A stretch of DNA of 33,819 nucleotides from NCBI GenBank assembly GCA_900617105.1, contig UYFQ01000298.1, positions 1 through 33,819 on the forward strand, given 5' to 3'. Made by a program: the position numbers and the translations under genes. Within the stretch, counting starts at the first letter, position 1. Every line of letters begins with the position of its first letter. Below are positions 1-26,236 of the stretch, one piece after another. A model generated the notes under the pieces. It searched no databases. It saw only the letters and a list, made by a program, of their open reading frames with translations, and was not told where the DNA came from. This DNA comes from Hydrurus foetidus (taxonomy: Eukaryota).

Positions 1-1832
1 TGAGCACCAACTCATTCGTTGACACAAAGATTGCTATATCTCGTTGTCCATTAATGCACTTCATTGATGACAATAAGCTAGACATCCGTTTGTATACAGA
101 CGTGTCCGACTTTGGTATCGGTGTTGTCTTATTCCAAGTTGTTGTTGCCATTTGGCAACCAATTGTTTTCATTAGCAAATCGTTGAAACCCACACAAATA
201 AAGTGGTCTACGATACAAAAGGAGGATTATGCCATCTTCTTTTGTTATACACAACTCGATTACCTAACCAGAGATCGTACATTCACAACCTATACTGATC
301 ATTTGAATATACGATAATATATAGCGAAACAAAACGCCCTGTCGGTGGCGAGATGGTTCATTGCTATGCAATAACTAGATTTTACCGTGGTACTCGTACC
401 CGGGACTTCGAATGTTTTGGCAGACGCACTGTCGAGGCTTTGTCCCACTTGATGAGATTGCTCTGCTATTACGAACAGAAGAATTGGAATTACTTCCTAC
501 TTCATCATCTTCTTTCACTGTATCAGCTCTGACGGTCATAGAACCAGCTTCAGACGATCAGTTAGAATACATTCAATTGCCACAATGCAATAATCGGTCA
601 CAACGGCGTAGACCGTACCCTTACTCGGTTGTTTAGTTTACAACAAGTATGGAAACACATGAAACAACATGTACGTACGTTCATACAGAACTGTCCGTGT
701 TGTCAAAAGTTGAGCGCAAAAGATCCTAAGATCAATGCGTCTCACTTTGTAACTTCAAATTATGCTATCTTCGATACGCTAAATGTTGACTTTATTGGTC
801 CATTTCCTGACAAAGGTTATATCCTAGTCATCATCGATACATTCACACGATGGACAGAATTGTTCTGGTGTGCAGACGCAGATGCTAAATCAGCAGCCGA
901 CTGTTTGCTTGCGCATTTGGTCGATTTGGATCACCAAAAATGATTAGATCTGATCGAGGATCACATTTCGCAAATGATTTGATCAAAGATTTATTAGATC
1001 TTTGTGGTACGCCAAATAATTTAACCCTCGCATACTCAAAACAAGAGAATGCAATTGTTGGAGGAGTCAACAAAGAGGTGAATAAACACTTAAGAGGTTT
1101 AGCTTTTGATAAATAAACCCTTGAGGGATATGCTTAATCAATCCCATTCGTGCAACGAATCATTAACGGTTCCGTTAATAGACGCACAGGTGTCCGCCCC
1201 GCTCATTTACTGTTCAGGAACAAACTTGATTTGAATCGCGGTATTCTCACTCCACACTTAAATGTTGGAACACATTCAAGATAAACGTACATATCAGATT
1301 TGATAAGTGTACAATACAAAGTACTTGAAACTGCGGTTCAAACTTTGTTAACGGCGGATGCTAAAAATGCCGCGTCAGCTGAATCAACGACTGTGTTCCC
1401 CGTGGGGTCATATGTCTTATGCCGATACACCGATCGACCTCCAACTCGATTACATACCAAGTGGCATGGCCCTTACTGTATTGTCTCCTTAAGGTCCGGA
1501 GGGTGTTGGAGCTAACCTTGTTAACCACAAGACACGAAGTGTTCATGTCAAAAAATTTGAAATATTCAATTATGACCCAAAGGTAGAGTACCTGCTGACT
1601 CTGCTCGTCGCGATTACATGAGTTCGTGGTTGAGAAAGTTCTGGGCCACGCTGGTGACACTAAGAAACCGACTAGCTGGGCCGTCGTTCCATGTTTAATG
1701 GCTCAACTACGATGACCTTCATAATACATGGGAGCTGTGGAAATCACTACGGTTCTGTGAAGCACTCCATGATTATTTACGGATAACAAAATGAAACATT
1801 TCATCCCCAGAAACATTGAGACATCAGCCTAA
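1..1832 (+). pseudogene. pol: Ty3/Gypsy (chromovirus-like) pol 3' part, family A copy 1: RNase H, integrase, chromodomain; many stops and frameshifts
   Basis: RNase H motifs (LYTDVSDFGIG, WSTIQKE, YTDHLN), integrase zinc finger CPCCQ, core TLNVDFIGP...IIDTFTRW, GPY motif (WHGPY), chromodomain-like tail (WLNYDD..NTWE.W). Collinear with the minus-strand copy at 29383-31200. Confidence 0.95.
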
Positions 1833-2168
1833 GTTGCTGATGTCGAACGTATTACTATTCGAAGATTTTTCCTAATTTTTCCTCTATGAGGTTTTCATGG
1901 TTTTGAAGGCCGCAAAAAATCGCGACACTATTATCGAGGTCTTCGTGCGGTGCGCGCATACGGTACTTGCACCCACCTTGTCACCTTGACTGACCCACCA
2001 CCCAGTCTATTTGTATAGATTTTATTTTTTTATTTTTATTTTACATTTTTAATGTATTATAAGATTTACATATTGTAATCTTTTTCTTTATTATTCCTTT
2101 TGTTAGTTTTAGTTGTATTAGAACTTTTGTACAAAACGTGGTTGTCGCGTCATAGGTTCTTTTTCTTC

Positions 2169-2187
2169 AGAAAAAGATAAGTGGGGG
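2169..2187 (+). promoter_or_regulatory. Polypurine tract of Gypsy A copy 1
   Basis: AGAAAAAGATAAGTGGGGG ending 3 nt before the LTR start; near-identical tract at 29102-29121 on the minus strand. Confidence 0.85.
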
Positions 2188-2190
2188 TGA

Positions 2191-2397
2191 TGTGGTCGGA
2201 CCGGCTATACCGGGCCTACGGGCCGTACCGGACCTTGTCCCGATCCATCCGATCCTACCGCCTACTGTACACATACATCTCTAGCGCAGCTGCTAGCTAG
2301 CTCTAGCCTACTCGTAGAAGTTATCCTAGCTTCTAGCTTAGAGCCTGTAACTAACTAACACCTTTCCTCTATCGACCTACTTCCTATCTGGACTACA
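2191..2397 (+). mobile_element. 3' LTR of Gypsy A copy 1 (207 bp, TG...CA)
   Basis: TGTGGTCG...GGACTACA; homology with the reverse complement of 28891-29098 ends at this point. Confidence 0.9.
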
Positions 2398-3569: not shown

Positions 3570-5435
3570 ACCCCAAACACCCAAACCCCAAACCCCAAAC
3601 CCCAAACCCCAAACCCCAAACCCCAAACCCCAAACCCCAAACCCCAAACCCCAAACCCCAAACCCCAAACCCCAAACCCCAAACCCCAAACCCCAAACCC
3701 CAAACCCCAAACCCCAAACCCCAAACCCCAAACCCCAAACCCCAAACCCCAAACCCCAAACCCCAAACACCAAACCCCAAACCCCAAACCCCAAACCCCA
3801 AACCCCAAACCCCAAACCCCAAACCCCAAACCCCAAACCCCAAACACCAAACACCAAACACCAAACACCAAACCCCAAACACCAAACCCCAAACCCAAAC
3901 CCCAAACCCCAAACCCAAACACCCAAACCCCAAACCCCAAACCCCAAACACCAAACCCCAAACACCAAACCCAAACCCCAAACCCCAAACCCCAAACCCC
4001 AAACACCAAACCCAAACACCAAACCCCAAACCCCAAACCCAAACCCCAAACACCAAACCCCAAACCCCAAACCCAAAACCCCAAACCCCAAACCCAAACC
4101 CCAAACCCTAAACCCCAAACCCCAAACCCCAAACCCCAAACCCCAAACCCCAAACCCCAAACCCCAAACCCCAAACCCCAAACCCCAAACCCCAAACCCC
4201 AAACCCCAAACCCCAAACCCCAAACCCCAAACACCAAACACCAAACCCAAACCCCAAACACCAAAACACCAAACACCAAACACCAAACACCAAACACCAA
4301 ACCCCAAACCCCAAACACCAAACACCAAACCCCAAACACCAAACCCCAAACCCCAAACCCCAAACCCCAAACCCAAACCCCAAACCCAAACCCCAAACCC
4401 AAACACCAAACCCAAAACCCAAACCCCAAACCCCAAACCCCAAACCCCAAACACCAAACCCCAAACCCCAAACCCAAAACCCAAACACCAAACCCCAAAA
4501 CCCAAACCCAAACCCCAAACCCCAAACCCCAAACCCCAAACCCCAAACACCCAAACCCAAAACCCCAAACCCCAAACCCCAAACCCCAAACCCCAAACCC
4601 CAAAACCCCAAACCCCAAACACCAAACCCCAAACCCCAAACCCAAACCCCAAACCCCAAACCCAAACCCCAAACCCCAAACCCAAACCCAAACCCAAACC
4701 CAAACCCAAACCCAAACCCCAAACCCCAAACACCAAACCCAAACCCAAACCCAAACCCCAAACCCCAAACACCAAACCCCAAACACCAAACCCCAAACCC
4801 CAAACACCAAACCCCAAACCCCAAACCCCAAACCCCAAACCCCAAACCCCAAACCCCAAACCCAAACCCCAAACACCAAACCCCAAACCCAAAACACCAA
4901 ACCCCAAACCCCAAACACCAAACACCAAACCCCAAACACCAAACACCAAACCCCAAACCCCAAACCCCAAACCCAAAACCCAAAACCCAAAGCCCAAAGC
5001 CCAAAACCCAAAGCCCAAAACCCAAAGCCCAAAACCCAAAACCCAAAACCCAAAGCCCAAAACACAAAACCCAAAGCCCAAAACCCAAAGCACCAAAACC
5101 CAAAGCCCAAAACCCAAAGCCCAAAACCCAAAACCCAAAGCCCAAAACCCAAAGCCCAAAACCCCAAACCCCAAACCCCAAACCCCAAACCCCAAAACCC
5201 CAAACCCAAACCCCAAACCCCAAACACCCAAACCCCAAACACCAAACACCAAACCCCAAACCCAAACCCCAAACACCAAACCCCAAACCCCAAACCCCAA
5301 ACCCCAAACCCCAAACCCCAAACCCCAAACCCAAACCCCAAACCCCAAACCCCAAACCCCAAACCCCAAACCCCAAACCCCAAACCCCAAACCCCAAACC
5401 CCAAACCCCAAACCCCAAACCCCAAACCCCAAACC
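3570..5435 (+). repeat. Internal telomere-type array (AAACCCC)n = (TTTGGGG)n, C-rich strand on +
   Basis: ~1.87 kb of 7-mer repeats; pure at both ends, with AAACACC, AAACCC, AAAACCC and AAAGCCC variants in the middle. Confidence 0.95.
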
Positions 5436-5617
5436 GCTCAAAGCTTACGGTTCGGGTTCGTCTGTGCAGCTAAAATTTGGAAGAACATCGGTCTATACTC
5501 CATAGACACCGACAGATTTCTACAACACCCATCACAAGGGTTTGGGAACTTCTCCGACTCTGGAAAGACAATGTGGTCGATGCGTTGTCGGTCTGTTGCT
5601 TATTTGCTGTAGGTAGC

Positions 5618-7941
5618 ATGACTTCTTTTCTGAGCGCTATCACCCAGCGGAAGAAAACCCCGGAACAGCTCGTTATCTCTGCGAAACTGTCCGTGAACTC
5701 ATATCTAGATGGTGACAACACAGCAGAGGAGAATTTAGCTAAGAGGTTAGTCCAAATTAAATTGATATTGTATGGGGATGGAGATCATCCTGAGGTCGAT
5801 GAAGAGAAGGCGCTCGAAGTTGGGAGAAGTGTGCAATCGGTAAGAATTCTCTCAGGTTTGTCTGTTAGATTATTTTCTGAAGACGCCTCCATGATTATAC
5901 CATTATAAATTGGTCTGACTATTAGGAGCGTTTAATCATTGTGATCGTCGAAAACATTGAGTCCATTCCTTTTGAGATCAGGAAAGACTCTGCATTGATA
6001 TTCAACAATCTGATGAGAAAAAATGTTGCAAACTTTTCTGGTTACATGCTCGAGAATTTCGATATCGTGAAGCGGCTTATCGAGGGTTACGAGCATCCAG
6101 ATGCTGCTTTAAACTGTGGATCGATGATTAGGGAGTGCATTCGGCACAACAATCTGGCGAACGCTATCTTAAGCTCCGAATATTTGTGGAAGTTCTTCGA
6201 CTCCTACGTTCACTTTCCCAACTTCGAAGTGGCGTCTGACGCCTTCAACTCTCTTAGGGATCTACTAGTCACAGTTAAGAATAAGACTATATCGTCCGCG
6301 TTCTTAGAAACGCACTTCGAAGAGGTCTTCACGCACTACGAAGTGCTACTGAAGAAGGGTAACTATGTAACTAGAAGAAGAGCGCTCAAGCTCTTAGGAG
6401 AGCTTCTCTTAGACAGAAGCAACTTCAACGTCATGATAAAATTCATCGCATCTAGAGATCATCTAAAGGTGCAGCTCTTTCACCTGATTGATTTTTCCAT
6501 TCGTTATGTAAACAGAATAGCACAAAAGAGATAGGAGATATTCTTGTTTGAATTTGAAAGAGATAGGCCACAGCTATCAACACCTGTCATTTTTTTTGGG
6601 TCCGATTGCACCGCAGCATGAGCTGATCCTGCGTATTCTGATACTTTAATAAGGAATATTTGAAAAGTGCACACACCTCACTCAGAGACCACCTCTCTAT
6701 TTTCAATGAATTCAGACAATAATGAACTTTCTGCGCGACCCCTCCCCGAACATCCAATTCGAGTAAGTTCTCATATGATGTATACTATTTGAAAAGAAAG
6801 ATTTCTGTAATGAATGACATTGTGTAGATTTATTTTATCAGACTTGCCGACGAAATCAAGGCCATCTCATTCCGAATACACCTACTAACTTATATCATTA
6901 ATACTCCTCTTTTTTACTTAGGGCTTTTCACGTTTTCAAAGTTTTCGTTGCGAATCCTAAGAAACCTATAGAAATTTCAGACATTCTTTTTAAGAATAAA
7001 GCGAAACTCATTCCGTTTTTAGAATCATTTCAAACTGAGAAAGGAGACGAGCAGTTTAATGATGAAAAGAGTCTACTTGTGGAGTAAGTCCCATTGAGAT
7101 TTGTACTTCTGCTTGCATCAGTGACTGACGTATGTACCACTAGCTGATAGCAATATCGACTCGTTCACTTTCTGATGACTGACTGGTCTTCAAGGGACTG
7201 ACTGTCTGTCTGTCTGACTTACATACTTACTTACTTACTTACTAAATTAAGATTACCATCGATGCATGGACACACACACACAGCCAATTATGAAGGCGTG
7301 AGTCTGACTGACGGTCGAATTGCTGGAAGTCACTGCCCCCGTTATTTCCACTGATCTTAGACCACCACGATCATCACACCTAGCACTTACACACTGCAAT
7401 TCCCTGCACAAATGACAAGCGCACCCCTGCATATGCACTCACCGTACGAACGTTATTTCATTTATTCTGCAGCACCCTGAAGGCATTAGAGAAACCATCG
7501 ACTGGGAAATCGTCCCCCACTATGTCGAAACTAGCCGGTTCTTCTTCTAAATTAGCCGTGTCTTCCAGTCTGTGCAGCAGAGACATTCCCATGAGAGCCC
7601 ACATAAAATCCACACACACAGAGGAAATTCCATTAGTGATTAAAATGGATGGTATCGAGCTGGGGCTGTCGGAGGAGAAAGTGGAATCTAAGGTCCCGAG
7701 TCCGCCCTGTGACGTACGCATAGACTGTAATGGCGAAACTCAAAGTAGTGCAGGAGTCGCTAGATCGGAAGTCGATAGGCCCGTGTCTCAGTCTGAGACC
7801 GAGACTGAGACCGAGTCTCGCTCTGACTCTGCGATACAGCCGTCATCTGTGATCCCGCTATTGGGAGCACACTCCCTTACGGAATCTGACTCACAGTCCA
7901 CTCGAAGTCGCAATGAGGAGTCGGCAGGGATGGCCACCTGA
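5618..7941 (+). CDS. MO25: MO25/CAB39 (Hym1)-family scaffold protein, 5 exons: 5618-5839, 5926-6468, 6716-6762, 6922-7083, 7473-7941 (~480 aa)
   Basis: Family motifs [68 protein letters not shown]. All four introns are GT..AG with consistent phases; the spliced frame is open to TGA at 7939-7941. Confidence 0.95.
7196..7243. repeat. Compound tetranucleotide microsatellite (GACT/GTCT/TTAC) in MO25 intron 4
   Basis: gactgactgtctgtctgtctgacttacatacttacttactttactt. Confidence 0.6.
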
Positions 7942-8424: not shown

Positions 8425-9166
8425 CCAGTGCTGCCAACAATGTGGTGGGGTCGGAAATGTGGTGGGTTCTCTCAAAATGCCCCATTTTGAACCCCCATAA
8501 ATATATTTCTCAAAAACTGAATATTTTATTTGAGTAATTAGATGGCTGTGATTCCATTTCCAAAATCAAATTTATTTGGAACAAATTTTGAAATGCAGAT
8601 ATTCCCTTAGGAAATGTATCGCTGGTTTTTAACTTGATTCTGGCTGCATTCTCAAGGTAAGTTAGATATCTTATCGTGTCAGAAATAGTCGTATTAGTTG
8701 GGACCGGAAAAGATTTGACGTACAAAGGAACGATTCAAGAGATAAAACGTATTTAGAGACAATTTACAGTGTTTTCGTGGATTCTGGACCGTGAATTTAC
8801 GTCATTTTTAGGGGGAAATACTGTAAATTGACTCTAAATACGTTTTATCTCTTGAATCGTTCCGTTCTACGTCAAATCTTTTTCGCGTCCCCACTAATAC
8901 GACTATTTCTGACACGATAAGATATCTAACTTACCTTGAGAATGCAGCCAGAATCAAGTTAAAAACCAGCGATACATTTCCTAAGGGAATATCTGCATTT
9001 CAAAATTTGTTCCAAATAAATTTGATTTTGGAAATGGAATCACAGCCATCTAATTACTCAAATAAAATATTCAGTTTTTGAGAAATATATTTATGGGGGT
9101 TCAAAATGGGGCATTTTGAGAGAACCCACCACATTTCCGACCCCACCACATTGTTGGCAGCACTGG
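8425..9166. mobile_element. Foldback element FB1 (742 bp, ~350-bp inverted arms, 4-bp TSD AAAC)
   Basis: CCAGTGCTGCC...GGCAGCACTGG; near-perfect arms around a ~42-bp spacer (8775-8816); AAAC at 8421-8424 and 9167-9170. Confidence 0.9.
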
Positions 9167-9256: not shown

Positions 9257-9474
9257 TGTGGCCTTGCTAGGTCTCAGGGCAACGGCAGCGGAGGTCTGCG
9301 GGCACGTGGACAAAGGGAAGATGCTGTGGGAGCTATTGCTATGGAAACGATGTGGTTAGCTTACAGGTAAACACAGCAGGTATCATGGCAATGAATCGTG
9401 TGGATCGGATCGTCCTCGATCCGAACCGGACGTACGCCTGTACCCGTACAGCCCGTACGGGTGTTCGGGTCACA
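9257..9474 (-). repeat. 3' LTR of Gypsy B (218 bp)
   Basis: Direct repeat of 20980-21196; preceded on the minus strand by the PPT GAGAGAGAGAGGGG (9478-9491). Confidence 0.92.
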
Positions 9475-9676
9475 GTGCCCCTCTCTCTCTCAAGGGGTGT
9501 AATAACTAACAAAATTCATCATCAAAATACTAACTATGAATAACTAACTAACTAATTGAATAACTATTTCAGACTAAGAACATAAAATTCCTTATTGAAT
9601 AAACCTCCCGAAAATCCTTGAGGATCAAGTTTAGGAGGAATCTTTATGATTTAGTAAATCAATTTGATTTTACCGG

Positions 9677-9978
9677 TTAACGGTAGTTCGCGATGAATTC
9701 GCGTGGTATCAAGTGTTTGAGATTCTTTTTGATTAAGAACTCATGTACTTTTTGCGATTTACGCATGTGTGTCCATGGTTCCCATGTATTGTGTTCATGA
9801 GTACAGTTGAGCCACTTTACATGAAATGTGAGCGATTTGTATGCTCTTATGTTTCCTTTCATGTCTAGGATATCTTCTATGAAGAATTCCAGATAATCTC
9901 TACAAGCAATGTCAGTTGGGTCGACATGTGTACGGTCAAAGTGAAACGGTTTTAGTTGGATCATGTGGTACAACTTTT
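9677..9978 (-). pseudogene. Gypsy B integrase C-terminus and chromodomain (separated from the core by the nested element)
   Basis: KLYHMIQLKPFHFD...FFIEDIL...FHVKWLN....NTWEPW aligns to the family A tail (FVVEKVL...FKVKWLNY....SWEQW). Confidence 0.9.
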
Positions 9979-10231
9979 TAGAGGATACCCGGAGCTCGCC
10001 GGAGGGTAGGATAGGTTCTCTGGACCGGAATTCCAAGTAACCGGGCATTCCCGTATAATCTCTAGTCTTCCATCCACATGATTTATTGTTGAGAGACGCA
10101 AGTCTCACTGCATAGCTACTTTAGATAGAAGCATCACATGTTTTGAAACCTGCGGTCTCGACTTGATTGCAGAGTTTTGTGCACTGCTCCTGCTTGCTAG
10201 TCATTGCAGCAGCGTAGCATGCTTTCATTTA
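9979..10231 (+). repeat. Split direct repeat A1 (253 bp)
   Basis: Matches 14756-15007 apart from one T indel and one substitution near the end. Confidence 0.95.
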
Positions 10232-13200
10232 GAGAGAATCTTTGCGAGACGGAAATGGTCGCGGAATGGGTCCTTTCAGATGACTGACCTACGGAAATGC
10301 CGAGGAAGAAGGAGTTCGCTCTTTCAATTGACTCGAGTAATGGGGTGGAGCCAAATAGCGAATTTTATCTCGGCACAGGATGCGTGTTTGTTATCGTGAC
10401 CTGCTACCTGGAAATGTCGTAGCTCAGTTTGGAGAATTCAGTGAGAAAGCCTTGAAGACGAAATGGAGGCTAATCAAGAGATTTTTCGACCAACTGTGAA
10501 CATTATCTGGGATCCGATACCGACCAATCGATGCGATTACCCATCGTCGATCAACCTCAGAGAGTACTACAGTTTAGAAGACAGCAGCACCGATCGAAAG
10601 ATGAAGATCAAGGTCGGAACCGCAATTTTGCGATGGGTTCCACACTCAACATCAGCTGCATTTTGTCAGTAATTTTATCGCACTATTCGAGGACTCTTTC
10701 TCTCGCTAAGGGGACGTCCCGCTTGCTCTCGCCATCGACCTGGCTGGAGATGATGCCAGCGAGAGTAGCCGATTCGAAACTGAGTACAGATTTAGTCAAC
10801 GATACATATGTTGTAAGTAAAAAGCAGATTCGATCCCACGACCCCCACGAACCTTTGATACTACGAGGAGTCCACTAGACCGCTAAGCTATGTGCGCTCG
10901 CGTGTGTTGAGGAGGAATATTATCGAAACACAAAGTTATCTAACTGAATGAAATAAAATAAAATAAAATAAAAAATTTGTTAACATAAAAACAAATAATG
11001 GTTGTAATTAGAAGGGAGATCAAGCAAAAATGCAGGGAGGTGATCAATTGAATGATAAATGTGCGAATAACAGAGAAGGAATTGAACCTCTACTAAAATC
11101 GCTTCATAAGAGGAATACGGAATATTATATAACTTTCTGTACTCCATACGAAATATGGGGTAATATTCCGTCACACTCCGATTTTTTTTGAAAACATTTC
11201 TGGACGTTCTCAGACACGTAGAAAATCATGATTAGCTGCTCAATCCGACACAAAGCTTCAACAGTTCCTCTCAATTAAATCAAAAATAAATAAATAAATA
11301 AATAAATGAAATCGTGGGTTGAAAAATAGAACAAAATGAAAAAATAAAATAAATGAGAGCGATTAAGTAGAAAATCAAGCAAGATACAGGAAGGAAATAA
11401 ATTGAACAGTAAAGAAGCGAATACGGAGGCTATATTCTGCTTTAATCACTGCACTTCTTATATCAAAGGTGCAATGAAATAGTTCGTCGAAGGAAAGAAA
11501 GAAGTAGTGGTTCGTTTTAGAATACGGAATATCATATGATTTTCTGTACTCAATACGAAATTCAGGGTATAATTTCGTCTCTGTCCGACTTTCTGGACTC
11601 CTTTGGAACATTAATGGATGATCGTAGACACAAGGCGATGAGATATCCGGGGTGTCATCGCCAGTGGTGGGTGTGCTGCTCGCGACAGCTTAGAAAAATA
11701 AAGATGATTGCACCAGAGCGGCACTGTACATGGAGGCAAAAAGCATTCTAGTACGATGAGAAGGCGGCTACCCGGTACAAGAAGACAAGAACGGATGCAC
11801 CAGAGCTGTACTTCCTACGGAAATATTCTTCTCTGTCTAGAAAGATGTGAAGGAGGGGGCTATCCTTGCGGAGGCTGCGAAAAGAAGTCCAACCCTGGTG
11901 ACGGTGCCGCAGGCAAGCGCGTCCGTTTGTTGGCTTACACGGTATGGCCCACCGGTTGTCTAATTATCAGGGCGTGCAGCGGACAGTGCTTCATCGCGGT
12001 GCACATCAGTGCAGCATGATGCAACACGGGCATGTCAGTAAAGCCCACTGCAGAGTAGAGTGGAGACCGCGTACCCGGAGATGGTTTCCGAGGAAAGACC
12101 GTCCCCTAAGGGGATTACCAACGAAGACTCCACAATCATGTCCATCGCTAGGGGCAGTAAAATTTTGCAGTAACGAAGATGAGTCCCTCGGGAGTGATGC
12201 ACAGTCCACCCTGGGTCTGATTGCATTGCAGAATTGTGTGCAACACAACACACTTTACATGCGGTGAGGTGTGGCGCAGTGCGGTGTAGCGCGACAGTGC
12301 TGTGCGGCTAGAGACTGTGCCATGCGACAGTGTATAGAACTATGCCGTGAGGTGTAATGCTGTGCAGTTCGACGATGTACAGGACGGGCTGGTTTGAATT
12401 CGCCCTCAAATCTCTAGGTCAAGTACATGACAGGCACTCGGACAGTCTGTCGCAATGTATCCCGTCGAGAAGGCAGCACCACAGTGAGCGGCGCGCAAGA
12501 CATTGTCTTCTAGGTGAGAGTGTATTGTTATAAGGAAATCGCAAGCGATCATGATAGTGATAAGTTGATTCGAACTTACGGCACCATGGTGTTGGTGGTG
12601 TGCGTATGCGTTGATGCTTTGTGGATTCAACACGATTAACCGATGTTGAATCCACACCCTGCGTAAGCAAAGAATGATGAGTATCATTTGAATGCGTACA
12701 ACATAGCAGTGATGGGTGTGACTGTCTGTGCATGTGTGACAGTGGCGTCTAGTGTATACTGTAGCCACTGTGCCTTGAAGGCGCAGCGCGGGCTGAGTAT
12801 ACACTATCTGAGGCGATGGAGCCGAAGATAGTAGACTGTCTTGGTGGGGCAGTCTTCACATGCGCAAGAAACAGCCCCATAGTGTTGTTTGGTGTGTTAG
12901 TTATGGGTGTGACTGTCTGTACATGTGTGATGAAACAGCCGGATGGTGTGGTATGTACTGTCTGTAGCCGTGTGGCTACAGAAAAAGCATTGGCCCAGTA
13001 CATGCTGCGACGGCTGGTTTCACTTGTGCAAGAAACAGCCCTGTAACGTATTAATGCAGTCTATGCACCTGTAACAAGCTTGATATGACAAGCCTCTGAT
13101 TGTACTTGTGTTATAGCACCTTGCACTGTCTACGGTACCTGTGTGTAACCGTAGAAAAGGCCCGACTGTCAATGTGAATGACAGTCCTGCCGTCAAATTG

Positions 13201-14493
13201 GCGGTAGAAAGCTCAGTGCATTGTATGTGTGTGTGCTATAGCCGCGTGGTATACTGTAGGTGTCAGTATACCACGCGGCTATAGCACTGGTAAGGGCGCA
13301 AGCACACGAGTGCGAAGCCCTTACCATAATCATATAAGAGAGCGGAGACTCATCATACCCGCACCAACATCACTTCTCAGAAATAAAGCGCGATGGTCGA
13401 CCGTCTCCGCAGATGGGCTGGCACATGGGCACGTTGAACCAGCACGAGGTGTGACAGAGGGCGCTGAGGTGTGGGGGGTGTCAGCGCATGATATCTAGAA
13501 ATTGAAAAATAAAGATGTCGAGAACTCTGGCCGGCGTCGTCGACCAGACGTACTGCAACCTCAGGGTCACATTGACGACGTACTGGCCTTTGGTGAGAAG
13601 TCAAAGGCCATAATAAGTTTAAAAAATAAAAATAAAAATGGATGTATCAGGAATGATAAAGGAGAGAAAAGGTAGACCCAATGAACGGGAGAGATCGTAT
13701 CCGGAATGGTCCGATTTCAGGCAAAGGATGGCATATCTGGCGAGCATGTTCTAGTGTGACTTAACCGTCCAAATCGGAGAGGACAGGAAGAAATGAAGTG
13801 GAGGGATGGATGTATGCTCGAAGAAAAACGATCTTAGATTCGTAGTCGGGGCCGCGTGTGGATCCAACAGCTTGCAATTGGGAATGCAGCATGCAATGTC
13901 GCTGTGCAGTGCGGTGCAGTAAGTGCAAACAGAGTAGTGAAGTGCAGTGAGATAGTCAGTGCAGTGCGGTGTACAGTGCAGCAGTGCGAAGTGCACAGAG
14001 AAAAGCAGTACAGTGAAGTGCAGTGCAGCGGTGCTTAACACGATGCTGTACAGTGCAGTACAGAGAGATGCAGTACAGTGTAGTGCCGCAAAGTGAAGTG
14101 CTAGTGCGTGACAAATGTTGGAGTAGCCCATCGTAGTCTCTTAGTCAAGAGGGTGAAGCTACAACGAGAATTATGGTAGCTGTGCGTGACAGGCGATCCA
14201 GCCTGGATTATGTCAAGAAATGAATACGGGCAGATAGGAGTAGGGTCAGAGCAGACTTGCTTAGGCAAAAGGTCGCAAGAATGGTCTCCCGCCAGATTGC
14301 TTCAGTGCGCATTTTTACAGAAAGAGGGGTGAGGTGCATCATTCCCATGCGCATACCGGGTGCCAATAAGGATTATCACGGGGACAGAGGGAAGCACGCA
14401 GCGGGATCTCAAGATATCATCACCCGAGCATGGTAGCGAGGAGACCGCTACCAACAGCATCAAGATAACCAGCAGCGCCCTAGGTTGTGGTGG

Positions 14494-15340
14494 GTGAAGG
14501 GCTTATCTGGGTCCAGGATCCATCCTATGCCAGCGCAGCCGACTGAGTCGGTGGCTACGCGGATAGGGTGGGCGGGCACTGGCAGGCGCGCGAGTGACGC
14601 CACCTGTAGGACAATCCAGTTACTTAATTATTAATTCAGAGTCCGATATCATCTGTACCTTATCGGTTTGAGGGTTATCTGATATGCTAATACCGCTAAC
14701 CGGAAGGTACGGTATCATATGACCGGGCAGCGGCCGGAATGCAGTGGAATAGAATTAGAGGATACCCGGAGCTCGCCGGAGGGTAGGATAGGTTCTCTGG
14801 ACCGGAATTCCAAGTAACCGGGCATTCCCGTATAATCTCTAGTCTTCCATCCACATGATTTATTGTTGAGAGACGCAAGTCTCACTGCATAGCTACTTTA
14901 GATAGAAGCATCACATGTTTTGAAACCTGCGGTCTCGACTTGATTGCAGAGTTTGTGCACTGCTCCTGCTTGCTAGTCATTGCAGCAGCGTAGCATGCTT
15001 TTATTTACCCCGTAGCCAACCATGCCTATTATAGATTTTTTGTAAACGTGTTTTGTCTGACCGCACGTGCGCCAGCCAGTGAAGGGCTTATCTGGGTCCA
15101 GGATCCATCCTATGCCAGCGCAGCCGACTGAGTCGGTGGCTACGCGGATAGGGTGGGCGGGCACTGGCAGGCGCGCGAGTGACGCCACCTGTAGGACAAT
15201 CCAGTTACTTAATTATTAATTCAGAGTCCGATATCATCTGTACCTTATCGGTTTGAGGGTTATCTGATATGCTAATACCGCTAACCGGAAGGTACGGTAT
15301 CATATGGCCGGGCAGCGGCCGGAATGCAGTGGAATAGAAT
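14494..15340 (+). repeat. Split direct repeats B1 (14494-14755), A2 (14756-15007), 71-bp spacer, B2 (15079-15340)
   Basis: B copies are 262 bp with one substitution seen (catatgAccgg / catatgGccgg). Confidence 0.95.
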
Positions 15341-18158
15341 CTTTGTGTGTTACCAGATCGAGTAATGTATACTCTGCGAAGTTATGACTTATAACTCGCA
15401 TTGGGCCACGCCACAGTGTGTGCATGCGTGTTTCTGGTGTTGTTCTTTTTTGCACGAGCACAAATGTGTCGACTCCGAACTGTGTGACGTTGGGAGGTTG
15501 TTGTGCATTGTGCAAGTCGTCGGATTCCTTGCGTAGACGTGCGGTGATTTCGATGAGTTCATCTTGCAACGTTAACATTTTATCAGTTGACCGTGTGAGT
15601 GAGTCGAAATATAAATCAATTTCATACCTCGGAAGGAGGATGTTTGCGTCGAGGTCGATCGCGTTGCCGTAGATGAGTTGTGCCGGAGACACTTTCATCC
15701 GGTCATTTACGGTTGAATTTAGTATTCTTTGTACAAACGGTAATATTTCTGCGTAGTTTTCCGTAGTTGCCCGTTCGTATGCGTACGCGGTTATATGGCG
15801 ATTGATTTCTTTGTTGATACGTTCGACGATAGCGTTTTCTTCTGAACAGTATGGTAATATTTTGTTGTGTGTTGTTCCAAGAATTTTCACAAACTCATCT
15901 ATGATGTGGCTTGCGAAGTGGGGTCCATTATCTGATCGAAGTATACACGGTGAGCGGTATCGCCCCACGTGTTCTACAAGTGCTGTGCACGCTGATTTAG
16001 CTGTTGCATCAGGTGTTGCGTAGAGTTCGACAAACCTTGAGGAAGTGTCGATCATAACAAGGATATATCCTTTATCAGGGAATGGGCCAATGAAGTCTAT
16101 GTTAAGGCATTCCATTGGTTTATACGTTGACGTTGTGTATCTGTAGGCGTTGATTTATTTCATCGCCGACATCTTTTCGCAACAAGGACAATTTTTTACG
16201 AATGTTTTCACTGCGTTACGCATTCCCATCCATATGTTATTTGTTTTCTTTAAACTTTTCTTTAAAAACGTAAGTTTTTGTGGTCTATTAGGATTGTGAA
16301 TTTACGATCTCGCAGCAGTGCGTCGAGATAAGTACAGCAATAATATAGCGCGAAGGCTTCTTTTTGTATTACTGACCATTTCAGTTGAGTCTTGGTAAGA
16401 GACTTGCTGACAAGAGCGACGAGTTGTTTTTCTCCGTCGACTTCTTGATACAAATAGCCGCCGATCCCGTAATCCGACGCATCGGTCATAAGGGTTATGG
16501 CCGCTGTATCGTGTATGAAATATAATAAAGGACTCCTTGCAATATGATCTTTTATCTTTTGAAAAGAATTTGCGGCGTCATCTGTCGAGATTAGCATCGA
16601 TTGCTTTTTCGCGGCGTGATCAATCATTTTATGTGTCTGCTTTTTGTGAACCTAATCTTGCTAACATTTGTTTAATATTAGGGATTGGCCAGCTTGCTGA
16701 TTCCGTTGCGTCGTTGAGGTGACGATAGTCAATACAGAATCGGTATGAACCGTCGGGCTTTGCCGCAAGTGTTACTTGCGAATAGTATGATGCCTCTATG
16801 TTGTACCCTGTTCAAGCATAGTTTCAACTTGTTTGCGGATTTCGACTTGTTTTCGTGTAGACGTTGGTCTGGGTGCCACGCGGTTTTTGAAAACTTTCCA
16901 CTCTGGATCCCGTATGGGTAGTCCAAAGGGGGGAATTCGCGCGGGCTCTGGTCCGAGTTTGTTGTTGAATAGCTTTATGTGTTTAACACAAATTGCTTTA
17001 ATTCTTGCTTTTTGTTCAGGGGCACCATCGATTTGTATTAGATCGATGAGGTACATTTTGTCCTCTGTCGGATTGTCTTGGAAAGGAGCGAAGGTATCCT
17101 TCGACTTGTAGTCAATCTCTTCGGGTCCGAAGGGTTGAACCTCTGGGAGTTCTTCACGCTCCCGGAGTAGAGCAGCAACTAAACCACGTGTTTGGGCTGG
17201 TGCCTTGGATGAGGGAGTAGGAGTAGCTACTTCCGGACTCCTGTCGGTTGTTAGACCTAAATCACCTTGTCGGGGAGGTGACAACAAAACTGCTGCCTCT
17301 ACCGTAGGGTGCAAAATGAACTCATCAGAATCTAGCCTAGCCGCTGCCGCAGCTAAGCTAGTGGGACACCCACATGAAGTAGTGCATGTCTTGCTTGTAC
17401 AAGCACCTCGAGCCACCAGGTCGTCTTACCATCGACTGTCTGCGTCTGAGGGTTTTGTCCCCTCCAGGCTAGTTATAACCGGAGGTAAGGTTGGATCTTT
17501 AATACTTGTGACTGTGTCCGACTCTGCTTCTAGCAGGAGTGGAACGTCCACTTGATTTATCACCATGTTTGTGGACTGGTCGAGTTTTTGTATTTTTGAC
17601 ATGTGTGTCATGTTTTTTCTGTTACTACGTTTTCTGGATTTTGGAGGAATTCCGGAATAAGTTTGACAAAATTTAATTTTCTAATAGTCTGTAATCCTAA
17701 GATTAAGTCGACTTTTGAATCTTCTGCAATTCGCACCGGAAGAGAAAAAGTGTGTTGATAAGAGTTTTTTTAAATGATACAATAATATCAAGCACACGTG
17801 TTGATTTAATACATTGGTTGTTTAAACCCGAGCACATCCATAAGGGAGTGTCTGTTGGGCGCAGGTGGGGTTCGCCCCGTAGGTCCCGGAGGACTATACG
17901 GTTGATTACGTCCCCGACCTGGCATCCGGTGTCGATTTGGGCGAGTGCGTCGATTCCCTCACTTTGGGGCGTACTTTGAGGACGACGAGGATGAGGAGGA
18001 GCTAGCATTGGAGTCTCGGTCGCGGTTGGAGAAATCTCTGTCGCGGTTGGAGACGTCTTTCTCTTTTTCCGTGTTGCGCGAGTCGTCTTTGCGGCTGGAG
18101 TCGCGGTCGCGACTGTTGGAGTGACTGTCGTTGCGATGGTTGGGCTGGAAGTTTGCCA
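15341..18158 (-). pseudogene. pol: Gypsy B pol remnant: protease, RT N-terminus, RNase H, integrase core; RT core and RH-IN linker deleted
   Basis: AQIDTG (~17930); YRFCIDYR (~16730); jump from GSQKADT to MIDHAAKK at ~16630 removes the YxDD region; TDASDYGIG; CLNIDFIGP, SDNGPHF, ENAIVERINK. Confidence 0.92.
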
Positions 18159-19833
18159 TCAGGTCTGTGGAAGAGATATGTGTACTTGTAAGTAATCCTC
18201 TATATTTTCAGGCAGTACTGCGGAAAGTAACATTTGCATGGTGGGTGTGCTGCGACTTTCGTCGAGGTTTTTCACATGCATAGCGGTAAGGTGTAACTTA
18301 CTTTTGCCTTTGTAGTTTGAGTTTGCGTGGGAACCACTTGGCTTGTTGCCACACTCGCTGTTGCGATCGTCTGACTGACGATCGTTGTTGCGGTTGTTGA
18401 ACTTATTGTTGTTGTTGTTGTTCTTGTTCTTGTTGTTGTTGTTTGGGCGGCGTGGGTCCTGGGTCTTAGGAGGTCCCATGTCCATCTCAACGTCGTCGAC
18501 TGGGTAGACGAACGTCGACGCACCCGGATAGTTTGTGAGGTGGGTTTTCTCGTTGTTGACATAGGTCTCGTGTTTAAAGTGGGAATGCCCGATGCGTTTG
18601 AAATCCTGCCCAATGGAAGAAGTGTTCCATGTGGCGTGGGAGCTGTTGCAGTGCGGGTTCATAAAGAGCGGACAGTTGTACCGATTATGAGTTGTCATTC
18701 CGCACGTGTGACATACGTCTGTTGTTCGGCTAATGCCTTCGTTGTCGGGACGACGTTTGGGAATGGTCTTGTATGATGCGGATAGGTCAGTGGACGCGGA
18801 TGTGGACAGTTGGGTATCGGGATCTTCTTAAGGGGGAAGCTTGGTGGTGAAGGTATAGCTTAGTCCCCCCATCTTGTCAGCGTCCGTAACTGTCTCGCGT
18901 GACGCTTGGAGACAGATGACAAGACGGGCGAGCATTTCCCTGATGTTGTCCTTTTTCCTTTCTTTGGCTGCCACTTTGGTCAAGTCCATGAAATTTTCAG
19001 TGAACTTGTTGCCTGGTGGGAGCTTTTTGTAGAATATCTTGCAGATATCGTCCTGGCGATCAGTATCGATGTTGTCATACTTGTTGTAGAACCCCAGGAT
19101 AATGTCGCGGAACGCGGCGATGGAAGTGTGTTCCAGTGCACCGTTCAGCCAACTGAATTTGAACTGAAATTTCCTCAGTTTGAGGTCGACGTCGTATGTG
19201 GATTGCGTACGTCTGTTAATGAAGTAGATTGTTTTAAGATCTTCTGCCATTTCTTTCAGAGTTAGCTCACCATCCGGTAACTCTGGCCACGTCATACATT
19301 GGGCGGGGGTGTAGCTGACGAGCTTCGTATTTTGCAAGAGTCCATCACGAATGGTGTCGAGTGCCTTATCCAGCGACTGCCAACCCGCGCTGAAACCAGG
19401 ACGGTGTGCCTGTTGGTAGGACAGGCGGGCGGACCCGTCCATGTCCTTCAACAGTACGTCCCTACCCATGTAGGACGCCTCCTTCATGTTGAAAAGGGAG
19501 GTCGTCATGTTTTGGTGACGCGGGATTTGGTTACGTTGGGGTTGTTCGATGCCCGCATCTTCTGTTTTGCGTTTGCGTATAGGGTTCTCCACGGCCTTCG
19601 GTTTCGAAGCCGGGACCTTTTTCGCTGGTGCTTTAGCAGTGCGTTTGGCAGGTTTGGCCGTGCCTCTTGAGGGTGGTTGCTCTGGTGTGGGTTTGACTAC
19701 TCGGGGGGAGCGTCTTTTGGCAGGTGATTTGGCCTCTGCGGGCTTTTGGGTGTCGGGTTTGGCTGTGAACGGATCTTCGGAGTCGGACGGGACTTGACTA
19801 CCTTCATCCGATGAGGGTTCGTTGTAATTTTCA

Positions 19834-19880
<47 letters not shown>

Positions 19881-20344
19881 TTCCTCACCGGTTTCCTCCT
19901 CCCTGCCCTCCTTGTCTGATTCAGGGTGGGAGTCCGATGTCACTTTGCCGTCGGCTGTTTGATCGTCCTTATCGCCGTCTCCCTCCTCGTCATTCTGTTG
20001 GGTCGGATTGCCACCTTGGTTTTCCTCCTTGTCGATGTTGTCGAGGTTGTCCGGTGATAAGGTGGCGGGTTCACGGTGTGAAACGACCTCGCCAGTGATC
20101 GACATGAATTCGGAAAGACTTTTTCCTTTTCATCTGTCTCGCCCTCCAATATGGAGAGACGTTTGCGCTCTGCTATGCGCGTGTTATGCCTCTTGGCTTG
20201 TTTTGCCTTGTGGGCTTTTTGTTCGTCTTCGATGCGGCTTTTAGTGTCTGTAGCCTTGATGGCTTTTTGATGAGCGCCACCGTCGAAGCTGCGATATTTT
20301 CCTCGCATCGCCTGGCGACTTTTTTGAGACGTTCCTTTTCCCAT
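17959..20344 (-). pseudogene. gag: Gypsy B gag with acidic tract, CCHC zinc knuckle and Asn-rich region; candidate intron 18165-18301
   Basis: ORFs 18828-20105 and 18159-18698 are in one frame, separated by an in-frame TAA; CHTCGMTTHNRYNC = CX2CX4HX4C; (GAGGAC)n coding repeat at ~19835-19880. Start codon uncertain. Confidence 0.8.
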
Positions 20345-20979
20345 TTGAGGGTCAGGCGTTCATCACCTAGAAGCGAAGAGTTGAAGCTGACCGAGCTAGA
20401 GCTCTGTTTCTTGTCTTTTTGGCTCCATCTTGAATTTTGGTCGGGACTTATTTTGATGGAACTGAGCGTCTTCGACAGCGACGGAACTCGGACGCGGTGA
20501 TTCAGGGAAATTAGGAGTAGGTTCGTCAGGGATGGAGACTGGTAGGTTAAGAGTGTGGCAGTAGAAGTCAGGGGGATTGGATTACTTTCGTGCGATTTCG
20601 GGAGGAAATCGCGTCGAAAGTTGGGAGCGTTGGACGGCTTCGTGGGCAACGAAGTTGGGCAGGCGCGTTGGAGCTTTCGTTTTAGAAACGATTTGTATGG
20701 TTTCACTTGCTTGCAAATTACTCTCTTTCTTCAGCCTTCGTTTTCTGAAGAGCTCGAGGAGATGTCGTCGAAAGTCGTCGGGACGAACTTCTAAACGAGG
20801 GCGTTCTGGAGGCTGTCGATTTGACAGAGTATTTCTAGTGTCGTTAGACGTTGTTTTCACTTTAAAAAGTTACTCGCTTTCGCTTGGCACGACTGTTCGA
20901 CGGTCGTGGCAAGGATTTTTTTGTTGATTTTGGCAACTGGTCTCTGAAGGAGATCCTAGTTGGTTCCAAATACCGGTAT

Positions 20980-21196
20980 TGTGGCCTTGCTAGGTCTCAG
21001 GGCAACGGCAGCGGAGGTCTGCGGGCACGTGGACAAAGGGAAGATGCTATGGGGCTAGTGCTATGATAGTAATGTGTTTAGCTTACAGGTAAACACAGCA
21101 GATATCATGGCAATGAATCGTGTGGATCGGATCGTCCTCGATCCGAACCGGACGTACGCCTGTACCCGTACAGCCCGTACGGGTGTTCGGGTCACA
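20980..21196 (-). repeat. 5' LTR of Gypsy B (217 bp)
   Basis: Direct repeat of 9257-9474. Confidence 0.92.
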
Positions 21197-21458
21197 GGGG
21201 GCTCTCTTCTACCCAGAGGGATTCTCACACTGGTCCCGCCTGATTTTTGAAAAAATGAAATACCCTGAAGCGATCAGCGGTTTTGCATATGCAGTTGGCA
21301 TGTGCATTTGGCATTTGCATTTGGCATGTGCAGTTGGCATGTGCCGTTACAGCAAACAGGAGCACAATTTTCATCCAGCAGTCATACACAGGTAGGAGCC
21401 AGTCCCAACTTTACAGCACATTCTTATACTTCGGTGATTAAATATTCCCTCCGACGTC

Positions 21459-24260
21459 ATGAATTCATCGGGAATTAGTTTCGAAGCATTCCTTCAATCA
21501 GAAGGCATCTATGAGAAAACGATCGAAGAATTGTATGATTGTGAAATTATCTTCCTTGCACGTGAAAGCATTCATGTTGCATTCTTCGTACACTTTATGG
21601 CAGATGAAAAATCTTGGCTGGCATTTCAGAAGATTTTATTCGATCTCGTGTCATCATATCTTGAATCCTACAGCAAAAACGTCTCGTTGACCCAAGGTGA
21701 TATAGAGAAACGAATGAAATCTGGTAAAATTGTGGTTACTAAGTTTGAGCAAGACCGAAATGTTTCGCGCGGAATATATGAAAAAAAGTTTCTTCAGTTG
21801 CCCTTGATTAAGTCTCTATTTGATGAGCCGCAGAACGATGAAATCAATCGCAGTATTAATGAACAGGGCCGTTTACTTTTCTGCTATTTAGAAGACCTTT
21901 CCTAAAAAAACTTCTGGACTTGGCATCATCAAAACAAAGGACTGCATGTTGACAACTTTATCACTGAAAGGGCGTCTGACATAAACTTTGACTATTCGGA
22001 GACCATGTTGCATAAAGTTTACGATATTACGGGCTATTTATGTGGTCATCGGATTTATAACCTTATACATTTAAATAGATTGAGACAAGACTACGTTGAA
22101 ACTTTCCAGAATTACCGTATTTTAACCCTTCACGCAAACGGCAATGATGCTTTAGCTCATAATCTTCCGGTCTTATGTATTTCATTTCGTGAACATTCGG
22201 AGGGACTTTATTATTCCAAAGCTGATAATTTTAATTTTATAAAAATTGTTCAAGGCATTTGGATGCAGTCATTGACAACAGATGTTTCAATACTCTTCAA
22301 TGCATTCGAGCCAGTTAAGCGCGTACATAAAGTCATACTAAATTCAAAAAATGTTCAACTTGCATTCAAGAAATTTATGTTGCAGGATTTATTTAAGGAA
22401 AACATGAACCTTGCAGATGACGAGAATCCGATATCTTTTCTATTTCAGTTTATCATAAATGGATTTATTCGAACGCACGTAAGAGACATATATATATGTT
22501 ACGACTTTCTAATGCTCTACTTAGCAAAACAGGCGCCTCTGGTATTAGGACAAATTTGTCATCATTCAGTGCGAAATCAGTTGCACTCAAACAGAATACC
22601 AATAATGTTAAGCTTCTTACCAAAAATGTATCCAACGACTTAGTTAATAGTCAACAAGGTAATCGATCGTCATCCTCGTTATCCTGTCCTTGCGGGAAAG
22701 TTTTTGTACGCGCGTCATGGTTTGAGAGACATGCATTAAATTGCAATATATCTCGTAAGATTGTATCACCTTTAGATCAAGAATCCGCAATAATGGAAAA
22801 TTTGATTGGTATGAATTATTTTGATCAGACATTCCAGAAATTGGAAGGACACACAGCAACAGGATTAATCCAGATACAACTTATTTCAATAAAAAATTAT
22901 ATGTTAGTTTTTTTTTATTCTAGAGTATTTGGAATATTTAATTTTATCTAAGATTTCTAATGTGTTATTTATATTTCATTTGTCAACAGGTCCGAATGGT
23001 AAGCCTGGCAGGAGGTCAGCTAGACTACTGTGTTTATCAGTGTTTTAATACATCAATGACGTCTTTGGATATATATACAGCACTAAGAGAAGTATTGATT
23101 GCAACAGCAACATTACAATTCGACATTATAGCAATAATAGCTGATGGAGCACAGTGTAACCGACAGTTTCAAAAGAAATATTTCACCGATGGAAATAGCG
23201 ACTATTCACATATGAAGCACCCAATAACTCATCAGCCTATTTATTACATCTCTGATCCATCTCATATGATTAAAAAAATTGTATCGAGCTTATCCAGTAG
23301 AAATAGAAATATATTTAAAACTGTCGACAATAAAGACAGAAGGGTATCTCTAACAGTCATGTTCGAACTCTGGATGTCCTTTAATGATAATTTAGGATTG
23401 AATAGTTCAAATTATTCAAGACTATTGATTTTCTAAAGAATTCTTTCCAAGGTATGAGAGTTGGGCCTTGTATAAAAGTTCTGGGACCTAAAATGATTGA
23501 GATGATGATAGACTTAGCTTTACTATACAAAGAGGAATACAAAATTTTCAATAATAACAAAGAGAACGAAAATAAATTGAATCCTTACGAATTCTGCAAA
23601 GATGCAGACTTGTATTTAGGATGGCGTGAAGCATCGCAATATTTCACAAATCTTTTCAATATCTTAAATTCTACTAAAAATAGACTCAATACAACAAATT
23701 ATTCTGAAAATTATCAATTTCTAATAGAATTTCAAAAGTAGTTTACAAATTGGAAGATAGAATGCATCGACAGAAAAAAAAAGAATTGCCTGCAATTCAC
23801 ACAGCCTATGAAGGAATGACTGGATTCTGTACGGCAGAGGCAGCTGAGGATTGCCTATCTATGATTTAAAGTTTGAATAACAACACTGGTGACTATTTTT
23901 TCTTTCTACCCCGCCGCATAAGTCAAGACTTAGTTGAAAATGCTTTTTCAAAAATTCGAGTCGCGATAGGCCACGGTAGATTGGACCACATTACAACGTT
24001 TAATGTGTGTACAGAGGTAAGTATGATAAAGGAAGTTAAAATAAGTGAATGATCTTCAAAGAGAAGGAATGCAGTGGGTGGGCAAATTTAAAAAATTAAT
24101 TCAAATAAGGATTATTTATCTTATGATGACATGTAGAAAAAATAGCTTCAAAAATCGCAGTGTAATTTATGAAAATTCAAGTAAACTCCTTTGGAAAATT
24201 GTGAATGGTCTTAAAATGATAGAAAACAAAATGCAAAATTTAAGTCGTGATCACAATTAA
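21459..24260 (+). pseudogene. P-like transposase gene B: YxxGY-type domain, C2HC finger, then catalytic second half
   Basis: YDITGYL...EGLYY (22020-22215); CPCGKVF....FERH...C (~22685-22745); probable intron 22903-22989; IIADGAQCNR (D at 23143), YISDPSHMIKK, MRVGPCIKV, RRISQDLVENAFSKIR (E at 23936). Several frameshifts and stops. Confidence 0.8.
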
Positions 24261-25492: not shown

Positions 25493-26236
25493 CCAGTGCC
25501 GGTAATAACGCGGTTTCGGTAAAAACGCGGTTATTCGACCCGGCAGGTCCGATATCTCTCCAAATTCTTCATGAAAAAGTTTTTGTCAAACATTCTCACA
25601 GGTAATTCGATAGTTTTACATTCGCTTCGATTATTAAAGTTTTCTGAAATTGATGATTTCATCACGAGATCGACATTAGTCACTTCTGGCGATTCACCAA
25701 TGTCGGATATAGATGAAGCAAGAGTATGCTTTAGTTATTCTATCTTGTAGGCAGTAGTCATATTATTATGGACACGCGAGGGTTTCGTACAAATCGCGAT
25801 AGTCACTGAGATGCATCAGTTTCAGAGACCAAAAATGTGCCTTTTTAACGTATTCGGGATGCGATTTCCCAATATTTCGACGAAAAAGGCACATTTTTGG
25901 TCTCTGAAACTGATGCATCTCAGTGACTATCGCGATTTGTACGAAACCCTCGCGGATTCATAATAATATGACTACTGCCTACAAGATAGAATAACTAAAG
26001 CATACTCTTGCTTCATCTATATCCGACATTGGTGAATCGCCAGAAGTGACTAATGTCGATCTCGTGATGAAATCATCAATTTCAGAAAACTTTAATAATC
26101 GAAGCGAATGTAAAACTATCGAATTACCTGTGAGAATGTTTGACAAAAACTTTTTCATGAAGAATTTGGAGAGATATCGGACCTGCTGGGTCGAATAACC
26201 GCGTTTTTACCGAAACCGCGTTATTACCGGCACTGG
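25493..26236. mobile_element. Foldback element FB2 (744 bp, 354-bp inverted arms, 4-bp TSD AATA)
   Basis: CCAGTGCCGG...CCGGCACTGG; spacer 25847-25882; AATA at 25489-25492 and 26237-26240; removal with one TSD restores the gene A frame (SPSALLFKNND). Confidence 0.92.

What the first reader, a model, noticed from the sequence alone, without database searches (positions are those of the whole stretch)
9979..15340. Recently inserted split-direct-repeat (A1...B1A2B2) element with no intact genes and no TSD
Seen: near-identical A (253 bp) and B (262 bp) repeats; the internal B1/A2 junction GAAT|TAGAG equals the right end joined to the left end; excision restores the host integrase exactly, with a single shared T at the crossover. 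Known: this is the layout of PAT, Ngaro and Chlamydomonas TOC1 tyrosine-recombinase retroelements, which integrate a circular intermediate. Fresh repeats around a heavily decayed body imply a non-autonomous family mobilised in trans.
Basis: partly seen in the sequence, partly recalled or inferred. Interest (0 to 1): 0.7.

Follow-up and report, generated by a model that had tools for sequence, protein, structure and literature searches.

The report
Gene-less split-repeat retroelement inside gypsy
This is a real, young 5.4-kb insertion with no intact genes, split end-repeats and no duplicated target, likely a passenger retrotransposon of a known kind that would be moved by a recombinase made elsewhere; it is ordinary apart from an internal segment predicted to fold unusually strongly.

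Summary
Observation confirmed. 9979-15340 has the layout A1-body-B1-A2-71-bp spacer-B2 (A 252 of 254 columns identical, B 261 of 262). It interrupts the integrase-chromodomain region of an older gypsy element. Contigs of 3 of 4 public runs show the exact empty site: 5362 bp skipped, one shared base, no duplication. No Pfam or PHROG family above cut-off in six frames. Near-identical, diverged and internally deleted versions of the body occur in public data, which points to a family. Best reading: a non-autonomous tyrosine-recombinase retroelement like TOC1 (Ngaro/PAT/VIPER layout), mobilised in trans. Not shown: the enzyme donor, a circle, other insertion sites, the superfamily. A possible recombinase remnant just before B1 is only a weak hint (E 0.18). 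New here: 12610-13340 folds very strongly (z -11.4) and has about ten times the summed contig depth of the rest of the body. The scan has noted such gene-less elements in other genomes before. New member of a known kind.

The parts
9979..10231 (+). A1, left terminal repeat (253 bp)
   Evidence: 252 of 254 columns identical to A2
10232..14493 (+). Body without intact genes (4262 bp); includes a diverged internal duplication (about 11113-11217 vs 11520-11631) and A-rich runs
   Evidence: relatives
12610..13340 (.). Hairpin-dense segment, including a perfect 24-bp inverted repeat 13233-13256/13264-13287; deeper in public runs than the rest of the body
   Evidence: (z -11.4, 0 of 20 shuffles as stable); depth table
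14274..14400 (+). Possible, unproven frameshifted remnant of a tyrosine-recombinase C-terminus
   Evidence: best hit of profile A1 among six frames, 17.5 bits, E 0.18 (others 11.0-15.9 bits); colinear weak piece in the next frame, E 0.56
14494..14755 (+). B1 repeat (262 bp)
14755..14756 (+). B1/A2 junction = right end joined to left end (predicted circle junction); shares one T with the target
   Evidence: empty-site joint
14756..15007 (+). A2 repeat (252 bp)
15008..15078 (+). 71-bp unique spacer, begins with a short C run
   Evidence: bridged by contigs
15079..15340 (+). B2, right terminal repeat (262 bp)
9257..21197 (-). Host: chromodomain-bearing gypsy LTR retrotransposon; LTRs 9257-9475 and 20980-21197 are 95.4% identical; pol broken by stops and frameshifts; interrupted between the integrase core (15341 onward) and the chromodomain (9677-9978)
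   Evidence: (rve E 8e-13, Chromo E 2e-9, RNase H E 4e-24)

Best explanation
This is a young, gene-less insertion with split direct repeats and no target duplication, likely a non-autonomous tyrosine-recombinase (DIRS-order) retrotransposon like TOC1 that would be copied and integrated by enzymes from an intact element elsewhere in the genome. Inferred cycle, from the established model for this order: a transcript running from inside A1 to inside B2 is reverse transcribed. The internal B1A2 block templates the missing ends, which renews A1=A2 and B1=B2. The copy closes at the B|A junction, and a tyrosine recombinase crosses that junction into a target sharing as little as one base. Shown: layout, repeat identity, empty site without duplication, lack of genes, related bodies in public data. 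Inferred: RNA step, circle, donor element.
For: Layout and identity. Exact empty site with one shared base in 3 of 4 runs from 2 studies. The ends are not TG...CA, and the 25 longest inverted repeats listed include no terminal pair. The repeats differ at 3 of 516 columns while the host LTRs differ by 4.6%, so the insertion is younger than its host. All 30 bins of the region are covered in 4 of 4 runs, with body contigs about 99% identical (e.g. X1 11649-12489, 7 differences in 841 bp), diverged contigs, and internal deletion joints. All 20 proteins found by a full HMMER search map to 10163-13793 at up to 41-100% identity per piece, often switching frame, none with a Pfam family over cut-off. 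A weak recombinase-like match lies 160-220 bp before B1, where PMC4157794 (passages) places the YR domain in Ngaro/Viper. Literature layout: PMC8547959, PMC4157794, PMC6681497, PMC9210276; TOC1: PMC5613634.
Against: No autonomous partner was found: DNA patterns gave 0 hits in 2 metagenome and 2 viral scans, and two protein searches with 14104-14553 gave none. No RT, RNase H, methyltransferase or recombinase family was detected. The recombinase-like trace is not significant (E 0.18; next-best frame 15.9 bits against 17.5; a full-length profile adds nothing upstream). Only one insertion site was seen, so absence of duplication rests on n = 1. One shared base is shorter than the trinucleotide proposed for DIRS elements (PMC7192593, passage). 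For DIRS-1 itself the cDNA is mostly linear and PCR for the circle junction failed (PMC7192593, passages), so the circle is a model even in the best-studied member.
Confidence: 0.85

Rival explanations
1. It is a dead, internally rearranged copy of a once autonomous Ngaro/PAT element that no longer moves as a family; the near-identical contigs are alleles of this one locus.
For: A possible recombinase remnant lies before B1. Contig depth is not copy number (tool caution). No second flank was read.
Against: A and B pairs are 99% identical while no domain survives in the body, which decay after insertion cannot give. Relatives differ widely and are equally non-coding.
Confidence: 0.07
2. It is a DNA-only element moved by a tyrosine recombinase (Crypton-like excision and integration), the internal B1A2 block being an incidental duplication.
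For: Insertion by short shared sequence without duplication is also described for Cryptons (PMC13465315 and bioRxiv 10.1101/2022.05.23.493040, passages). No RT trace.
Against: In those passages Cryptons have short 4-6 bp direct repeats, not 250-bp split repeats. An internal copy of exactly the end-to-end junction is what the retro-model needs.
Confidence: 0.04
3. It is a rearranged conventional LTR derivative (LTR = A-spacer-B) or an assembly artefact.
For: A2-spacer-B2 could be read as one 585-bp LTR. None of the listed contig pieces bridges B1/A2 with 31 or more letters on both sides (24 of 878 pieces shown).
Against: No TG...CA ends, no target duplication. The A1 and B1 boundaries are exact. 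Public data link A to the body (P0137) and A2 to the spacer and B. Depth does not fall at the B/A junction.
Confidence: 0.04

Closest known systems
TOC1 of Chlamydomonas reinhardtii (non-autonomous derivative of the DIRS-order element TOC3; PMC5613634 and PMC9940879, passages)
   Same: Non-autonomous element of the tyrosine-recombinase group. From recall, not from a call: TOC1 is about 5.7 kb, with split repeats of about 220-240 bp, a short spacer and no target duplication, all close to this element.
   Different: No sequence comparison was possible; other host lineage; no partner identified here; this body has a hairpin-dense segment. The original TOC1 papers were not held.
Ngaro elements of the stramenopile Cafeteria burkhardae (PMC8547959, passages) and Ngaro/PAT-like families of Ectocarpus (PMC12477816, passages)
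   Same: A1-[ORFs]-B1A2B2 layout, about 6 kb, nested in other mobile DNA, internally deleted variants.
   Different: Those encode gag-like, RT/RNase H and recombinase ORFs (some lack ORF1); this one encodes none.
PAT, Toc3, Kangaroo and VIPER/TATE elements (PMC4157794, PMC6681497, passages)
   Same: Split direct repeats; T. cruzi VIPER has A 173 bp and B 219 bp, and a non-autonomous derivative, SIRE.
   Different: They are told apart by methyltransferase, zinc finger, recombinase orientation and phylogeny, none of which can be read here.
LARDs and retrozymes (gene-less LTR passengers with structured RNA; search listings and abstract starts of PMC7215508, PMC4918200; LARD structure recalled)
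   Same: Gene-less retroelement with a strongly folding internal part.
   Different: They have conventional LTRs. No hammerhead core or Rfam ribozyme match is in this element.

Membership tests
Split-direct-repeat tyrosine-recombinase retroelements, non-autonomous (TOC1-like) | A1 at the 5' end; B1, A2, B2 at the 3' end; pairs near-identical | tested here: met
Split-direct-repeat tyrosine-recombinase retroelements, non-autonomous (TOC1-like) | Internal B1/A2 junction equals the two ends joined | tested here: met
Split-direct-repeat tyrosine-recombinase retroelements, non-autonomous (TOC1-like) | No target-site duplication; at most a short sequence shared with the target | tested here: met
   One site only: empty-site joint with one shared base in 3 of 4 runs
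Split-direct-repeat tyrosine-recombinase retroelements, non-autonomous (TOC1-like) | Dispersed copies with the same ends at unrelated sites | tested here: inconclusive
   Variants, deletions and higher depth over the repeats; no second flank read; no genome held
Split-direct-repeat tyrosine-recombinase retroelements, non-autonomous (TOC1-like) | An autonomous RT-RNase H-recombinase element sharing the ends | tested here: inconclusive
   0 hits; those DNA scans also found no other copy of this element, so they do not test absence
Split-direct-repeat tyrosine-recombinase retroelements, non-autonomous (TOC1-like) | RNA intermediate and circular cDNA | not testable with these tools
   needs RT-PCR, inverse PCR or a marked copy
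Ngaro superfamily (autonomous) | gag-like, RT/RNase H and recombinase ORFs, no methyltransferase, RT phylogeny | tested here: not met
   no domains; recombinase trace not significant
PAT-like superfamily (autonomous) | RT/RNase H, methyltransferase and recombinase ORFs | tested here: not met
   no domains
LTR retrotransposon derivative (LARD/TRIM) | Two full LTRs with TG...CA ends and a 4-6 bp target duplication | tested here: not met
Retrozyme | Hammerhead ribozyme in the repeats | tested here: not met
   0 of 5 window matches to the core pattern lie in the element; no ribozyme among 9 Rfam matches at E up to 5

The most novel reading that the evidence does not exclude
The 0.73-kb hairpin-dense segment is the conserved functional core of an old lineage of gene-less recombinase retroelements: a structured RNA signal for packaging or reverse transcription, kept by most copies that carry A and B while the rest of the body is swapped or deleted, and sometimes present in tandem. 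It would be a defined cis-acting RNA for trans-mobilisation in the DIRS order.
Probability: 0.15. Interest if true: 0.5.

Novelty: new member of a known kind. Interest (0 to 1): 0.22.

Why it matters
As a single copy it matters little: gene-less split-repeat elements are known (TOC1) and this scan has noted several in other genomes. It adds a clean case with an independently observed empty site and a one-base crossover in a widespread freshwater protist. If the folded internal segment proves conserved across the family, it would give a handle on how such passengers recruit the enzymes of an order whose replication steps are still largely a model (PMC7192593).

Tried and rejected
Own genome: none held. 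DNA pattern scans for other copies: 0 hits in metagenome contigs and viral contigs. No RNA holder listed. Loose ends at the element's termini, to tabulate targets: not among the 18 of 119 rows shown. Junction hairpin like an integron site (lead from e1-8147475): the two ends pair in the best folds of the 60- and 100-nt junction windows, but z is -0.42 to +0.89 in 6 of 6 junction folds; not supported. A by-eye recombinase motif at 14341 needing one frameshift: 10 columns, E 0.013, no BLASTP alignment to two real recombinases; it overlaps and competes with the frame +3 match and was not accepted. An RT-like 'HIDD' at about 13571: no Pfam hit, not tested with a dedicated profile. The 75-aa frame at 10445-10672: no Pfam hit; its relative P0127 differs in a pattern that looks neutral by eye. 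ESM Atlas on 14224-14433: best 0.88, unnamed clusters, low recognition. PDB: 0 matches. Plasmids: 1 match at E 7. Recalled recombinase motif scans of viral contigs: 0 hits. The genome-contig scan gave 86 matches; of the 63 whose translation I saw, 3 looked like real recombinases. The script machine was lost, so shuffle controls for the recombinase trace were not run; other frames served as controls. Supplements were closed; the Ectocarpus family notes (PMC12477816) may describe gene-less Ngaro families and could not be seen. Paper searches listed no paper whose title or abstract start describes a structured internal RNA in gene-less DIRS-order elements; most subscription papers are not held.

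Full report
Observation. The repeats are as described. A1 (9979-10231) and A2 (14756-15007) agree at 252 of 254 columns, B1 (14494-14755) and B2 (15079-15340) at 261 of 262. B1 runs straight into A2, and this junction is the right end of the element followed by its left end. A 71-bp spacer lies between A2 and B2. The ends are TAGAG at the left and AGAAT at the right, not TG...CA.

Host and empty site. The element sits in a minus-strand gypsy retrotransposon with LTRs at 9257-9475 and 20980-21197 (95.4% identical), between its integrase core and its chromodomain (Pfam rve E 8e-13, Chromo E 2e-9). Removing 5362 bp reopens that frame (2 of 6 options tried). By eye the frame is then colinear with the second chromodomain element of the window at 29383-30534 (the pairwise alignment was in the wrong frame and is not used). 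Independently, contigs of runs X4, X1 and X2 (2 studies) join 9977 to 15340 with one base fitting either side, and X7 has a different base there. These contigs may be other copies of the multi-copy host, but they show the sequence before insertion: no duplication, no deletion, one shared T. The host carries a Mo25 gene nearby. Its closest hits are unnamed (up to 92%); the nearest named are Symbiodinium (57%), Tribonema (56%) and oomycetes (50-52%). The host is therefore probably a SAR protist, perhaps a stramenopile; this is not settled. Holders of the element are 20 runs in 12 studies, mostly freshwater, biofilm, sediment and air metagenomes; I laid 5 of them.

Coding capacity. Six frames read through stops gave no Pfam family over cut-off (one hit at E 0.017) and no PHROG family. 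A full HMMER search with one frame of 10250-13849 found 20 proteins. All 20 map onto 10163-13793, often switching frame, and none has a Pfam family over cut-off. I read them as chance frames in DNA relatives of the body. To look for a recombinase remnant I built a 20-sequence profile of recombinase C-termini from contigs in three genome bins that look like eukaryotic retroelements (one row looks like a bacterial recombinase). The seed was chosen with a recalled motif. Its best match in six frames is GLPPDCFSAHFYRK at 14274-14336 (17.5 bits, E 0.18), against 11.0-15.9 bits elsewhere. A colinear piece follows in another frame at E 0.56. The place fits, just upstream of B1, but the score is not significant and a full-length profile adds nothing. 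Three deletion joints in public contigs remove this stretch (14063-14468, 14128-14461, 14169-14453; sides of 23-58 letters; the tool cautions against such joints at this likeness).

Family. All 30 bins of 9480-16300 are covered in 4 of 4 runs. Body contigs range from about 99% identical (X2 10238-10834, 9 differences in 597 bp) to about 86% (X4 13133-13371, 34 in 238), with many internal deletions. Summed depth in X4 is about 490-1800 over 10392-12443 and 13584-14267, 11,000-20,000 over 12444-13355, and 41,000-108,000 over the B-A-spacer-B block. The same order holds in X1 and X2; in X7 the segment and the B1/A2 bins are about equal. The tool states that this is not copy number, so it is a hint only. 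Other flanks could not be read, and pattern scans found no other copy or partner.

Folded segment. 12610-13340 folds at -324 kcal/mol against -239 +/- 7 for 20 shuffles (z -11.4). In 150-nt windows most z values of -3.4 or lower lie in 12600-13350. It holds a perfect 24-bp inverted repeat, no Rfam match at gathering level and no hammerhead core. One joint in X4 returns from 13333 to 12695, as a tandem copy would (table 5c). Diverged relatives keep its left (P0125, by eye) and right (P0131) neighbours, while P0129 and P0138 continue into another sequence after about 13390. It is either a conserved core shared by several bodies or a separate nested repeat; covariation could not be tested.

Mechanism. 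Near-identical split repeats around a gene-less body, an internal copy of the end-to-end junction and a crossover at one shared base are what the DIRS-order model predicts: ends restored from the internal block during reverse transcription, a circular copy, and integration by a tyrosine recombinase (PMC7192593, passages, which also report that DIRS-1 cDNA is mostly linear and that the circle junction was not amplified). The enzymes would have to come in trans. The RNA step, the circle and the donor are inferred.

Comparison. The A1-B1A2B2 layout is described for PAT, Toc, Kangaroo, Ngaro and Viper (PMC4157794, PMC9210276, PMC6681497, passages), in stramenopiles for Cafeteria (PMC8547959, passages) and as 15 Ngaro and 5 PAT-like families in Ectocarpus (PMC12477816, passages; supplements not seen). 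TOC1 is the known gene-less case (PMC5613634, PMC9940879, passages; its sizes are recalled). The element works like these, but cannot be filed under Ngaro or PAT because the defining domains are missing. Earlier notes of this scan list 8 comparable elements in other genomes (unchecked AI notes), and none matches this DNA.

Verdict. Real and correctly read; a new member of a known kind; interest 0.22. The folded segment is the only part that might be more.

Noticed in passing
window 10235-10244 and 15336-15345: The 10-mer that spans the element's right end and the first five target bases also occurs 4 bp after the end of A1; 2 matches in the window against 0.11 expected (noticed after the fact). 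It could be a relic of an older junction or hint at a preferred target.
   Followed up: partly
window 3570-5435: 269 copies of the 7-bp unit ACCCCAA (TTGGGGT on the other strand), 91% matches; telomere-like array inside the contig.
   Followed up: no
window 8425-9166 and 25490-26239: Two unrelated ~750-bp fold-back elements with arms of 287 and 357 bp at 99% complementarity; MITE-like.
   Followed up: no
window 26545-28133: 8.6 tandem copies of a 184-bp unit, 99% matches.
   Followed up: no
window 21-2351 and 28940-33332: Two more gypsy copies with RT, RNase H, integrase and chromodomain hits at the second, 77% identical to each other in opposite orientation.
   Followed up: partly
window 5477-7300: Mo25/CAB39 gene in several pieces (Pfam E 5e-57), used as a rough host marker.
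   Followed up: partly
window 21459-23741: Fragmented AT-rich frames with no Pfam hit in 4 of 4 tested; by eye and recall they resemble a broken P-element/THAP9-type transposase.
   Followed up: no
L058/L097 (G001), L051 and L098-L121 (mostly G003), L071 (G002): Three prokaryotic genome bins hold contigs that look like eukaryotic retroelements; G003 has at least 150 RT matches and 25 recombinase matches, which points to heavy eukaryotic contamination.
   Followed up: partly
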